Shown: positions 1 through 3,000, counted from the stretch's first letter. The stretch: DNA of 64,000 bases from an uncultured bacterium (GCA_949283025.1 CASDRB010000012.1:1-64000); one strand, 5' to 3'. Numbers: made by a program.

Positions 1-3000
1 CCTCCTGTTAAATTAATTTGGTTGCCGAACCGAATTAATTCTAACACGGAGGTTTTTTCATTACTAACCTATAAGGTTTTCAATTCTCTCGCGCATAGCG
101 TGTGGTTTTTATCTCGCGATACTCGCTTCGATAATAAAAAACACAGTTACGATGATTAAAACAATAAAAATTATAATTACTAATAATCTTGATAAAATAT
201 TTTTCATTTGCAAAATGTTATGAATTGAATATAATATAGACAAGAGGTAACTTTGATTAACCCTCGTTTGGTGGTAAGTTGCCTCTTTTTTTATTTCTTC
301 TTTTTGGAAATAGCTCTAATTCTTGCTTTGTCCTCAACATCTTTGACTTTACAGCTAATTATTTCTTTTCCAAAAGATTCGCGTTTCGCATATCGCGGAT
401 TTTTTAAAACATAACAATCTTTGTTTGATTTAGAATCTATATTTTTATTTAGTTTAATTCTTCTTGGTCCTTTTGAGCTTGTAAAACAAACAATGTTATA
501 TCTATTCTTTTTATCATTTTTCTTGTACACATAAGATGGATGCAATCCTTTAATAGAATTATCTTTGTGCCAATAATATTTGCCTTTTTTAATAATCTTC
601 AATTCTATTTTTCTCCTTTCTTGTCTTTACTTTTATTCACTTTTTCTAAAGCTTTAACTTGCTTATTAATAGCTTTAGTTTGCTTATTTATTTTTCTTGT
701 ATTAGCACTTGCTGAAATACTTGTAAAAATAGGTGCGACATACGGATAAATTAAAGCTAATAAAACAATAAGAATGATAAGGCCTATAATTCCTAAAACA
801 GCTCCAAAAATATTTCTATTTGTCCAATCAATATAAGGCGGAATACCATCTGGTATAATATTGATAGGATCCATAAGAACAGGAATAATAGTTAGAAGTA
901 TCTTCAGTAGTTGTTTCTGAAGTTGTTGGAGGTGTTAAATTCTCCTTGGTTTTATCAAAATTCGTAAACCAATCTGTTGAAGCGCCAAAAGCGATTACGC
1001 CTCCAGCAGCGATAAGCGTCATTAAGACCGCTAAAAATGTTGTAAATTTTTTTGCCATATTTATAATCTCCTTTTCTTGACAATGTTTTTAAAATTAATA
1101 TAATGAACTTGTCTAAATCCTGTTTTCGATTTAACCCTTTAAATAGGGTTTTACAGGAAATAGACTTTTTTTATTTTTTGTTTTTTAAATAATCCTCAAT
1201 TATATCCATATCTTCATCGCTAATTTGATATTTCATAATCCATCTAGAAAAGATTTTTTTCTTTTGCTTACCAACATATTTTCGAACATATGATTTATCA
1301 GCTTTCTTATTTATCGGTTTTTTTAAAAGAATATAAGATTCATGTTTAGCAGGATGAGTTGTTATATCCATATACGTTATATCCATATACGAATATTTAC
1401 CAGATTTTAAAGGACTATCTTCATCAACAATTAATGCTGCATGTTTAGTTTTATTATTATTTCTAATATGCCACCAAGAACGTTTTTTCATCCTTTGTTT
1501 TCTTCCTATTCATCAATAGCTAGACGATTATTTAAAATTTCAGTAAATTCAATTTTTTTAGATAAAGTGTCATAAGTATCTCTTTTAATATGAAATTTAT
1601 CTTGGATATTAAAATTACCGTGAATGTAATATTGAATACGTGTTTTAATAACACTTTGTTCATCCACGATTGATTCATATGTATGAATGACTTTAGTAAT
1701 CTCTAAATCGTTGTATGAAACAGTTTCATAAACATCGATTATTTCATCTTTATTAATCATATATTGTGAAATCATGACATCAAAATATGCTTCAGTACAC
1801 ATATCTTTATCTGAATTTAAAGACGCTAGAGCTTCATCGTGTTCTGCTTTAGTTAAATAAGATGCATCAAAACATCTTTTCGATATTATTGTCGTATATC
1901 AATTAGATCGTTTTGGAAGAAATGTATCAGAATCAATGATTGAAGAACAAAAATTAAAAAGACTTGGCATTAAATTATTATCAGCAACTGAACTTATCAC
2001 AAGTGAGAACGAGGAGCTAAACGACGATTTATTTTTACCTCGCGGTTTAGTTCGCCTTTTTGCTGAAAATTATTCTCGCGATTTATCAAAAAAAGTAAAA
2101 CGAGGATTAAAAGAAAGTTATTATAAGCGTAATAGTGTTGGTGGTATTTTACCAATAGGATATAAAAGCATAAATAAAAAAATTGTTATTGATCAAATAG
2201 AAGCCGATATTGTTAAAGAAGCTTTTAAAAGAAGACTCCAAGGCCAAACAATAACTGAAATATATAATTATTTTAAAAACAACGGATTTGCTAGAAAAAA
2301 TGGCTCTTTGATTTCTCGCGCATCAATTCACAAAATGCTTTCAATGACTAAATATATCGGTAAATTTGTCAATCCATATGATTCAGCGGATATTATCACT
2401 GATATGTTTCCTCCTATTATTGATGAAAACACATTTATGTTAGTAAATTCTATCGAAAATAATCCACATAAATATCGCAAAAAAACAGATATGCAAAATT
2501 ATGTTTTAATTGGTAAGTTATTCGATGCCGAAACCGGAACACCATATAAAGCATATTCAGGAACTTCATGCACAAAACGTTTGTATAGATATTACAAACT
2601 CAATTCTATAAAATTGCCAAAAGCAAAATTTGAAAAAATGGTTTACGATGCAGTTTGTTCATTTTTAAACAACCCTAAAAGAAAAGAACAAATTGCGGAT
2701 TTGCTTTATAGAGAATTGGATAAAAGAAAAGATACAACTATTATTGATAACTTAAAAAGAGAATTAAAAGAGCTTAAAACACAGCAAAAAGAAATTGCTA
2801 AAAAGTTTATTTTTTGTGACGAGTCTATGGAAACGTCCTTAAATGAAATAGCAAAAGAAACTCAAGATCGTATCAATCATTTAGAAAATAGAATAAATGT
2901 TGAAATTTCTAAGTTATCTAGCATTGCACTTGGCAAAGATGGGATTAAATATTTGATCACAAATTTATTTTCTAAAAAAATTACTGATCCAACAAAAATA

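What a model noticed while it worked through the whole genome (the two positions that open the first line are those of the whole stretch)
200..1491. Small basic SH3-fold proteins with convergent hairpin sRNA: new RNA-antitoxin-like module
g00669 and g00672 are about 105-aa MazF/PemK-fold proteins with no Pfam hit and no protein antitoxin gene seen next to them. Each ends head-on at its own sigma70 promoter driving a 50-60 nt hairpin RNA with a U-tract (about C12:240-291 and 1105-1171, + strand). The layout is conserved in homologs, which suggests MazF-like toxins kept in check by a convergent small RNA rather than MazE.
Evidence so far: AF2 pLDDT 94; all listed Foldseek hits are MazF/PemK (best 4mzp, E 1.6e-4, TM 0.59; call 184). 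A convergent hairpin plus U-run within about 30 nt of the stop codon in 21 of 25 gene copies examined (2 own; L610/L611 are the same locus; call 162), most with a TATAAT-like -10 box just upstream; RNA sequences differ while the stem is kept. Control: only 9 of 1100 genes of this genome pass a promoter+hairpin test, 2 of them these genes. No Rfam match at E<=0.05 in 10 homolog loci and no relevant match here. Two further orphan copies of the RNA lie beside tRNA-Gly genes (C4:48095-48200, C6:42675-42785; calls 23, 145).
(Added by a program. Inside this text positions count along the whole contig: contig position 1 is position 1 of the stretch shown here. "Call 12" and the like, gene names such as g00115 and contig names such as C1 are that model's own, and its searches are not shown. 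The text may have been shortened before it was handed on; [...] marks where a part breaks off. The agent that wrote the report below was given it as the finding of a first reader that could run no searches.)

Follow-up and report, generated by a model that had tools for sequence, protein, structure and literature searches.

The report
MazF-like toxins with head-on hairpin RNAs
Two genes here belong to an unnamed family of small proteins predicted to fold like the RNA-cutting toxin MazF, each facing its own predicted promoter and short hairpin RNA instead of a protein antidote; this is likely a new kind of toxin and RNA-antidote pair, and spare hairpins elsewhere may act as stored immunity.

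Summary
Genes A (291-602) and B (1171-1491) belong to one remote family of small, very basic proteins. The model of A (pLDDT 92.8) matches MazF/PemK, and more weakly the type III toxin CptN. An invariant His sits where MazF has its catalytic Arg. Each gene ends head-on at a sigma70 promoter, a closed 43-56 nt hairpin and a U-run that overlaps the stop codon. A fixed detector finds this at 69 of 97 family genes (22 of 34 held out), against 18 of 996 other genes of this genome and 2 of 97 for the upstream type III layout. Stems covary. No recurring upstream protein partner was found. New here: the RNA type follows the protein clade, many hairpins carry a 5'-strand bulge, and relatives hold orphan copies, tandem copies and fused runs of different hairpin types, some in genomes where no matching gene was found. 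Best reading: a toxin with an RNA antitoxin. Direct binding (type III-like) is slightly ahead of antisense (type I-like); sequence cannot separate them. It is not the Rfam pemK motif. Expression, toxicity and neutralisation are untested.

The parts
291..602 (-). Gene A, 103-aa basic protein (pI 10.2, 31% K+R), predicted MazF/PemK fold, His21 and Thr41-Ser42 in the active-site register
208..235 (+). Predicted sigma70 promoter of RNA1 (TTGCAA, 16 nt, TATAAT)
242..292 (+). RNA1: predicted closed hairpin with a 5'-strand bulge and 7-nt loop, U-run overlapping the stop codon of A; same RNA family as the C4 and C6 orphans
1171..1491 (-). Gene B, 106-aa member of the same family from a distant branch (28% identical to A), with a 15-nt tandem duplication at 1361-1390
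1077..1104 (+). Predicted sigma70 promoter of RNA2, perfect consensus (12 of 12)
1110..1172 (+). RNA2: predicted closed hairpin with a 9-nt 5'-strand bulge, U-run overlapping the stop codon of B
605..1058 (-). Two small ORFs between the modules (605-874 with a hydrophobic segment; 828-1058 with a signal-like N-terminus); cargo, no family hit above cut-off
1506..1802 (-). Acidic 98-aa ORF upstream of B; no homologs, no clear ribosome site; probably a fragment, not excluded as a protein antitoxin of B
1936..3189 (+). Large serine recombinase whose frame opens inside the resolvase domain (N-terminus apparently lost): the island looks decayed
3179..3269 (-). tRNA-Ser(GCT), likely integration site of the island (island GC 27.5% against 31.4% beyond)

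Best explanation
Each gene and its head-on hairpin likely form a toxin-antitoxin pair in which a predicted MazF-fold RNase is held in check by a 40-60 nt RNA that would bind the protein directly. Shown: the gene, a convergent promoter consensus, a covarying hairpin and a U-run across the stop codon, repeated over the whole family, with the RNA type following the protein clade. Inferred: the strong promoter makes the RNA in excess; the closing stem doubles as its terminator, using the toxin's last Lys codons as the U-run; the bulge and inner stem-loop dock on the basic protein and block the His/Thr site; head-on transcription also damps toxin mRNA. Loss of the island, or a transcription shut-off as in phage infection, would let the RNA decay and free the toxin. 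Spare RNAs would protect against related toxins on incoming elements.
For: Fold: all 32 listed Foldseek rows are MazF/PemK/Kid-type, best E 1.9e-4; the top 11 VIA rows are MazF-type, CptN included at Z 7.4, rmsd 3.4, 96 aligned. His21-Pro22 aligns to the PemK Arg-Pro and Thr41-Ser42 to its Thr-Thr; these are the catalytic positions in PMC8887465 (passages). His is invariant, 67 of 67, at 21% mean column identity. No recurring small partner among 78 upstream ORFs of 118 genes. Layout 69 of 97 on all main branches of the tree. RNA sequence is kept above neutral: 0.77 against 0.40 at fourfold sites, 45 pairs of 10 loci. Clade-specific inner motifs survive replacement of the outer stem (L027/L094; L022/L234/L235 share an AUUACUU bulge); a perfect cis complement would not need this. 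One G.U pair in 20 of 20 and one U.G in 18 of 20. Extra units: 13 of 99 genes have 2-4 promoter-hairpin units; three loci fuse three hairpin types behind one promoter; 4 of 9 genomes with a strong c5-type RNA show no c5-type gene. Of 8 broken genes (9 partial ORFs, two from one gene), 5 keep an intact RNA. Precedent: bulge nucleotides of AbiFr inhibit the AbiF RNase (review PMC12737573, section read).
Against: No expression, toxicity or binding data. The orientation hardly ever varies (upstream same strand 2 of 97, downstream same strand 0 of 103) and the RNA end lies within -8..+12 nt of the stop codon in 63 of 74, which is what a cis-antisense RNA needs and a protein ligand does not. In the c5 family bulge and loop are the most variable parts. 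YUNR loops are mildly enriched: 8 of 21 against 4.3, 76 of 2000 shuffles. The 5'-bulge bias drops from 34:3 to 12:4 after removing redundancy. The profile match to PemK is weak (probability 0.9%, E 0.059), VIA Z of 8 is near background for that tool, and Arg to His could mean no catalysis. Genomes lacking a cognate gene are 73-98% complete drafts. Downstream protein partners were not surveyed. Loci are kin, not independent.
Confidence: 0.42

Rival explanations
1. Type I-like: the protein is a toxin, but the RNA works as a cis antisense RNA. Toxin mRNA would read through the RNA locus, loops would kiss, and the 45-55 bp duplex after the stop codon would be cut by RNase III, as for txpA/RatA. 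This would be a type I system with a MazF-fold RNase.
For: Near-invariant convergent layout and end pinned at the stop. No U-tract on the mRNA strand in 46 of 51, so read-through is expected. Type I loci of Gram-positive bacteria overlap at their 3' ends (PMC4147584, passages). YUNR loops 8 of 21 on the RNA and 9 of 21 on the mRNA strand. Net duplex energy -59 kcal/mol for RNA1; the C4 and C6 orphans could pair in trans at -17 and -12.
Against: The overlap is shorter (43-63 nt) than the 75-120 nt and almost fully self-paired. Conserved wobble pairs and clade-specific inner motifs are not needed in cis. Hairpins keep their fold inside fused arrays and as orphans.
Confidence: 0.3
2. Not a toxin: a catalytically altered MazF-fold RNA-binding protein and its cognate small RNA form a particle with another job on mobile elements, such as regulation or a decoy against host RNases.
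For: Catalytic Arg replaced; Thr kept in only 41 of 67. K+R median 26% against 12-18% in four ordinary PemK proteins. No convincing PADLOC or NCBIfam match.
Against: An invariant His at the catalytic register suggests chemistry. RNAs outlive their genes, the asymmetry expected of toxin-antitoxin pairs. Up to 7 copies per genome, patchy spread, on islands.
Confidence: 0.17
3. The hairpin is only a transcription terminator and the promoter consensus is an accident of AT-rich DNA, or serves only to interfere with toxin transcription.
For: Promoter-like sites are at chance frequency in this region. Nothing shows that the RNA exists.
Against: 2 of 996 other genes pass the strict test against 45 of 69. 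The U-run is on the strand opposite the gene, with no ORF between promoter and hairpin. G.U pairs 104 of 843 on the RNA strand against 27 of 743. Inner sequence is conserved above neutral.
Confidence: 0.07
4. An ordinary type II system whose protein antitoxin was missed (for B, the acidic ORF at 1506-1802).
For: ORF E is small, acidic (pI 4.7) and directly upstream of B.
Against: E has no homologs. Upstream ORFs that recur are comFA-like fragments (13), an RpiB-like gene (6) and a ComEC-like gene (5), names recalled from motifs.
Confidence: 0.04

Closest known systems
Type III systems ToxIN, CptIN, TenpIN, AbiQ
   Same: MazF-like protein fold (CptN 4rmo, Z 7.4) paired with a non-coding RNA, no protein antitoxin.
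   Different: Their RNA is an upstream, co-transcribed array of 34-50 nt repeats cut by the toxin, a pseudoknot in ToxIN (passages). Here it is downstream, on the other strand, with its own promoter and terminator, one hairpin per unit; the protein is about 105 aa against 155 for the CptN chain; no ToxN-type Pfam hit in 83 members.
MazEF / PemIK (type II, PF02452)
   Same: Best structural matches; size; active-site register.
   Different: No MazE/PemI partner found upstream; Arg replaced by His; 0 of 83 members reach the Pfam cut-off, one scores E 0.01; more basic.
Type I systems of Gram-positive bacteria (txpA/RatA, bsrG/SR4)
   Same: Convergent genes that meet at the 3' end, on mobile elements.
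   Different: Their toxins are typically small hydrophobic peptides; here a folded RNase-like domain and a short closed hairpin.
AbiF / AbiFr (RCd22)
   Same: RNase inhibited by a structured RNA through a single-stranded bulge.
   Different: HEPN fold; RNA upstream and co-transcribed in C. difficile.
Rfam pemK motif RF02913 and DUF3800 motifs (Weinberg 2017)
   Same: Structured RNAs found near a protein family; several DUF3800 motifs end in terminators.
   Different: RF02913 is absent from G000; in 19 loci it lies on the same strand and 220-420 nt upstream of ordinary PemK genes where these occur (4 of 19), and none holds a gene of this family. No such Rfam match in the window or 20 homolog loci.

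Membership tests
MazF/PemK type II toxin | MazF/Kid/CcdB SH3-like fold | tested here: met
   A. B alone is weak (E 0.045)
MazF/PemK type II toxin | Pfam PF02452 above cut-off | tested here: not met
   0 of 83 members and neither window protein
MazF/PemK type II toxin | Catalytic Arg and Thr | tested here: not met
   His in 67 of 67 at the Arg position; Thr in 41 of 67; register from a weak profile alignment
MazF/PemK type II toxin | Adjacent upstream protein antitoxin gene | tested here: not met
   No recurring small partner among 78 upstream ORFs of 118 genes; downstream ORFs not surveyed
MazF/PemK type II toxin | Sequence-specific RNase activity and toxicity | not testable with these tools
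   needs bench work
Type III TA (ToxIN/CptIN/TenpIN) | MazF-like toxin fold | tested here: met
   CptN Z 7.4, rmsd 3.4, 96 aligned
Type III TA (ToxIN/CptIN/TenpIN) | Antitoxin upstream, same strand, co-transcribed | tested here: not met
   2 of 97 have an upstream same-strand promoter-hairpin unit, 69 of 97 a downstream convergent one
Type III TA (ToxIN/CptIN/TenpIN) | Pseudoknotted tandem repeat units cut by the toxin | not tested
   no pseudoknot search run; units fold as simple hairpins with covariation
Type III TA (ToxIN/CptIN/TenpIN) | RNA binds and inhibits the protein | not testable with these tools
   indirect signs only
Type I TA of Gram-positive bacteria | Convergent RNA meeting the toxin transcript at its 3' end | tested here: inconclusive
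   Layout met; the mRNA 3' end is not mapped, read-through inferred
Type I TA of Gram-positive bacteria | Small hydrophobic peptide toxin | tested here: not met
   103-106 aa basic globular protein
Type I TA of Gram-positive bacteria | Repression by base pairing | not testable with these tools
   energetically possible
pemK RNA motif (RF02913) | Match to the covariance model | tested here: not met
   0 matches at E <= 1 in G000; none in 20 homolog loci
AbiF/AbiFr | HEPN four-helix toxin | tested here: not met
   model is a beta-barrel with one C-terminal helix

The most novel reading that the evidence does not exclude
A polymorphic toxin system whose immunity is written in RNA: each clade of His-type MazF RNases is blocked by its own bulged-hairpin aptamer, and genomes collect orphan, tandem and fused hairpins as an RNA immunity library against toxins of incoming elements, the RNA counterpart of orphan protein-immunity arrays. 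It would be the smallest known RNA inhibitor unit for a MazF-fold RNase and a natural set of orthogonal RNase-RNA switches.
Probability: 0.22. Interest if true: 0.92.

Novelty: new variant of a known kind. Interest (0 to 1): 0.77.

Why it matters
Known RNA antitoxins either pair with the mRNA of mostly small membrane peptides (type I) or are upstream repeat arrays that bind an RNase (type III). This family joins the type I gene layout to a type II/III toxin fold, so either mechanism gives a new combination. It is common in a little-studied lineage of small-genome gut Bacilli (47 of 300 genomes of the family) and occurs in 8 families of the class. The whole module is about 400 bp, and dozens of natural protein-RNA pairs allow a direct cross-neutralisation test. 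Fused hairpin arrays suggest a way to store immunity in RNA.

Tried and rejected
No RNA holder listed for the stretch: no evidence either way on expression. Contigs laid on 141-1150 show the A module in other samples, with RNA1 variants; gene B and its duplication were not checked against reads. The homodimer prediction for A gave no answer (score 0.00); it is no evidence for or against. No family gene in IMG/VR scans, in 57 viral and 10 genome pattern loci (the pattern hit no more than its control), or in the phage records for two queries. No sequence match in the PDB. PADLOC and NCBIfam gave only scattered weak hits. No family gene in 6 genomes of the same genus, and no A-type RNA there. A third similarity to RNA2 on C5 is not a hairpin unit. 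The first fused-array pattern missed through a wrong gap length and was corrected. Weak hits of the RNA models (E > 0.001, except L189) look like plain terminators. The supplement of Weinberg 2017 could not be read; it may describe motifs that bear on novelty. Nine literature searches showed no listing that describes this layout; most subscription papers, the primary AbiF/Cas13 paper among them, are not in the library. Four look-ups of earlier findings returned nothing.

Full report
Setting. The stretch is the left end of contig C12 of a 1.2-Mb, 97% complete genome. A low-GC island (27.5% against 31.4%) runs from a contig-breaking repeat (1-140) to tRNA-Ser (3179-3269). It holds a serine recombinase whose frame opens inside the resolvase domain and five co-oriented ORFs on the minus strand: E, B, D, C, A. 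Named relatives are uncultured Bacilli from gut metagenomes.

The proteins. A and B have no Pfam hit and are 28% identical. Word searches gave 51 and 13 close homologs, a profile search 99 representatives. One alignment of 67 sequences covers both (E 2e-35 and 8e-24), and they sit on distant branches. His21 is invariant; Leu51 and Asp91 are nearly so. The model of A (pLDDT 92.8) matches S. aureus MazF at E 1.9e-4, TM 0.60. The wide search ranks eleven MazF-type chains first, Z 8.4-6.8, the type III toxin CptN among them, ahead of Tudor/KOW barrels at Z 6.4 or less. Viral PemK-like models lead the viral library. B's model is poor (pLDDT 63), but its best rows are MazF too (E 0.045). The ESM Atlas lists unnamed clusters and one cluster with 14% PemK members at score 0.91. 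A weak profile alignment to four ordinary PemK proteins puts His-Pro on Arg-Pro and Thr-Ser on Thr-Thr. Arg25/Thr48 and Arg29/Thr52 are the catalytic pair in S. aureus PemK and E. coli MazF (PMC8887465, passages). So the fold is predicted with good support; activity is not shown.

Spread. Matches in 21 of 200 and 47 of 300 genomes of the family with the two narrow profiles, in 23 of 399 genomes of the class, G000 included, in 8 families (two genomes not scored), in 0 of 6 of the genus, and up to 7 per genome.

The layout. I wrote a detector for an opposite-strand sigma70 consensus followed within 3-16 nt by a hairpin closed from its first to its last bases and a U-run near the stop codon. It was designed after seeing the first loci, so the first counts lean towards it: 37 of 54, then 51 of 69, strict 45. 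On 34 full-length genes fetched later it gave 22, strict 17; 4 partial genes were left out there and 10. Controls: 20 of 998 genes of G000, two of them A and B, strict 4 of 998 with A and B; 5 of 186 neighbour ORFs, strict 2; same strand downstream 0 of 69 and 0 of 34; upstream same strand 2 of 97, upstream opposite strand 6 of 97, five of which are the RNA of a neighbouring family gene. A relaxed scan finds a longer or shifted unit in 8 of the 18 first failures. The 3' end lies within -8..+12 nt of the stop in 63 of 74; the U-run is the complement of the final Lys codons and stop. No small upstream protein recurs.

The RNA is a structure on its own strand. A-type family (RNA1, both orphans, L094, L096): 10 of 18 pairs with changes on both sides, 0 of 500 shuffles as high, slid controls 1-2. 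c5 family, 20 sequences: 8 of 15, 0 of 500, one invariant G.U. Relatedness inflates these controls. The RNA strand folds better in 44 of 51, and only 5 of 51 have a U-tract on the mRNA strand. The bulge is on the 5' strand in 34, on the 3' strand in 3, symmetric in 5, multibranch in 9; without redundancy 12, 4, 4, 1. c5 RNAs are 77% identical where fourfold sites of their genes are 40% identical. RNA likeness rises with protein likeness and is at background below about 50% protein identity, with exceptions in which an inner motif survives a new outer stem (17 pairs listed, one of them likely chance at 23% protein identity). AUUACUU, the bulge of one clade, contains UUACU, a reported Kid site (PMC5408214, passages); this is a lead only.

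Spare RNAs. The C4 and C6 orphans keep a -10 box and fold at -22 kcal/mol with no family gene nearby. A model of the A-type RNA gave 7 weak hits in 100 other genomes: one lies head-on to a family gene that had not been fetched before (L189, E 7e-16), three look like full units without a gene, three like plain terminators; in the three genomes with full units no family gene was found (93-98% complete). The c5 model gave 10 strong hits in 9 of 150 genomes, all nine with some family gene; in four no gene exceeds 44% identity to the c5 reference, against 71-79% for true members. Thirteen of 99 genes have two to four units in a row, and three loci fuse three hairpin types behind one promoter. Whether these are selected or recent debris is not shown.

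Mechanism. A toxin-antitoxin reading explains the fold, the missing protein partner, the island context and the survival of RNAs without genes; I give it about 0.75 in all. Within it, direct binding (0.42) is favoured by conserved wobbles, clade-specific inner motifs, modular arrays and the AbiF precedent (PMC12737573, section 11 read). Antisense (0.30) is favoured by the fixed head-on geometry, expected read-through and mild YUNR enrichment; it matches Gram-positive type I loci (PMC4147584, passages). Both may act. Every step after the DNA anatomy is inferred.

What is known. Type III antitoxins are upstream co-transcribed repeats (bioRxiv 10.1101/2025.04.15.648962, passages). Type I toxins are typically hydrophobic peptides, SymE being a nuclease exception (PMC5367252, passages). 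The E. faecalis PemK locus in PMC3074167 is type II (passages). Weinberg 2017 (PMC5737381, passages; supplement unreadable) does not name pemK in its main text; RF02913 was tested directly and differs. PMC13107127 (passages) added nothing. Rfam gives no relevant match in the window or in 20 of the loci. Nine searches listed no paper on this arrangement, within a library that lacks most subscription papers.

Verdict. A real, conserved protein-RNA module; a new variant of RNA-antitoxin systems if the function holds; interest 0.77. The boldest open reading is an RNA immunity library (probability 0.22).

Noticed in passing
window 1-140: A 140-nt repeat that also ends four other contigs (C7, C9, C13, C14), with a long hairpin and a weak Rfam STnc490 match (E 0.005); probably the end of an insertion sequence that broke the assembly (IS200-like, recalled).
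   Followed up: partly
window 133-294 and G000:C4:48104-48268: RNA1 and its upstream flank are 81% identical to the C4 orphan locus (98.5% over 133-200): both derive from one cassette.
   Followed up: partly
window 257-259 and 272-281: RNA1 of this genome departs from the family's GAAGUA bulge-stem motif, which contigs of two other runs keep at 257-259, and now shares a GAUU..AACCCU string with RNA2; drift or conversion between the two RNAs.
   Followed up: no
window 1361-1390: 15-nt tandem duplication in gene B (five residues twice), absent from its 12 close homologs; it sits in a low-confidence loop of the model.
   Followed up: partly
L014/L023, L020, L083, L090, L093: Family genes stack in tandem cassettes, each flanked by 5' fragments of a comFA-like gene that stop at the Walker A codons (name recalled from motifs; 13 such upstream fragments): repeated integration into a competence gene.
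   Followed up: partly
L008, L023, L210 (three hairpins); L004, L016, L093, L228 (two): Different hairpin types fused behind one promoter with one shared terminator.
   Followed up: yes
L086, L025, L236, L216 and nine more: Two to four separate promoter-hairpin units in a row, with changed bulges and loops.
   Followed up: yes
L189, L017: Family genes next to long ORFs with a P-loop-like N-terminus and small secreted-looking proteins, possibly filamentous-phage-like elements (recalled likeness).
   Followed up: no
L007, L175, L028, L052, L062, L199, L238: Some clades seem to have longer, multi-hairpin convergent RNAs (100-220 nt, by eye) that the detector misses.
   Followed up: no
G000:C15:41704-41769, C7:3905-3952, C11:20586-20623: Other stand-alone promoter-hairpin-U units in this genome, not similar to RNA1 or RNA2 by eye.
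   Followed up: no
L031-L049: The Rfam pemK motif mostly lies after sigma-factor-like genes and before excisionase or recombinase genes; only 4 of 19 loci show a PemK gene nearby.
   Followed up: partly
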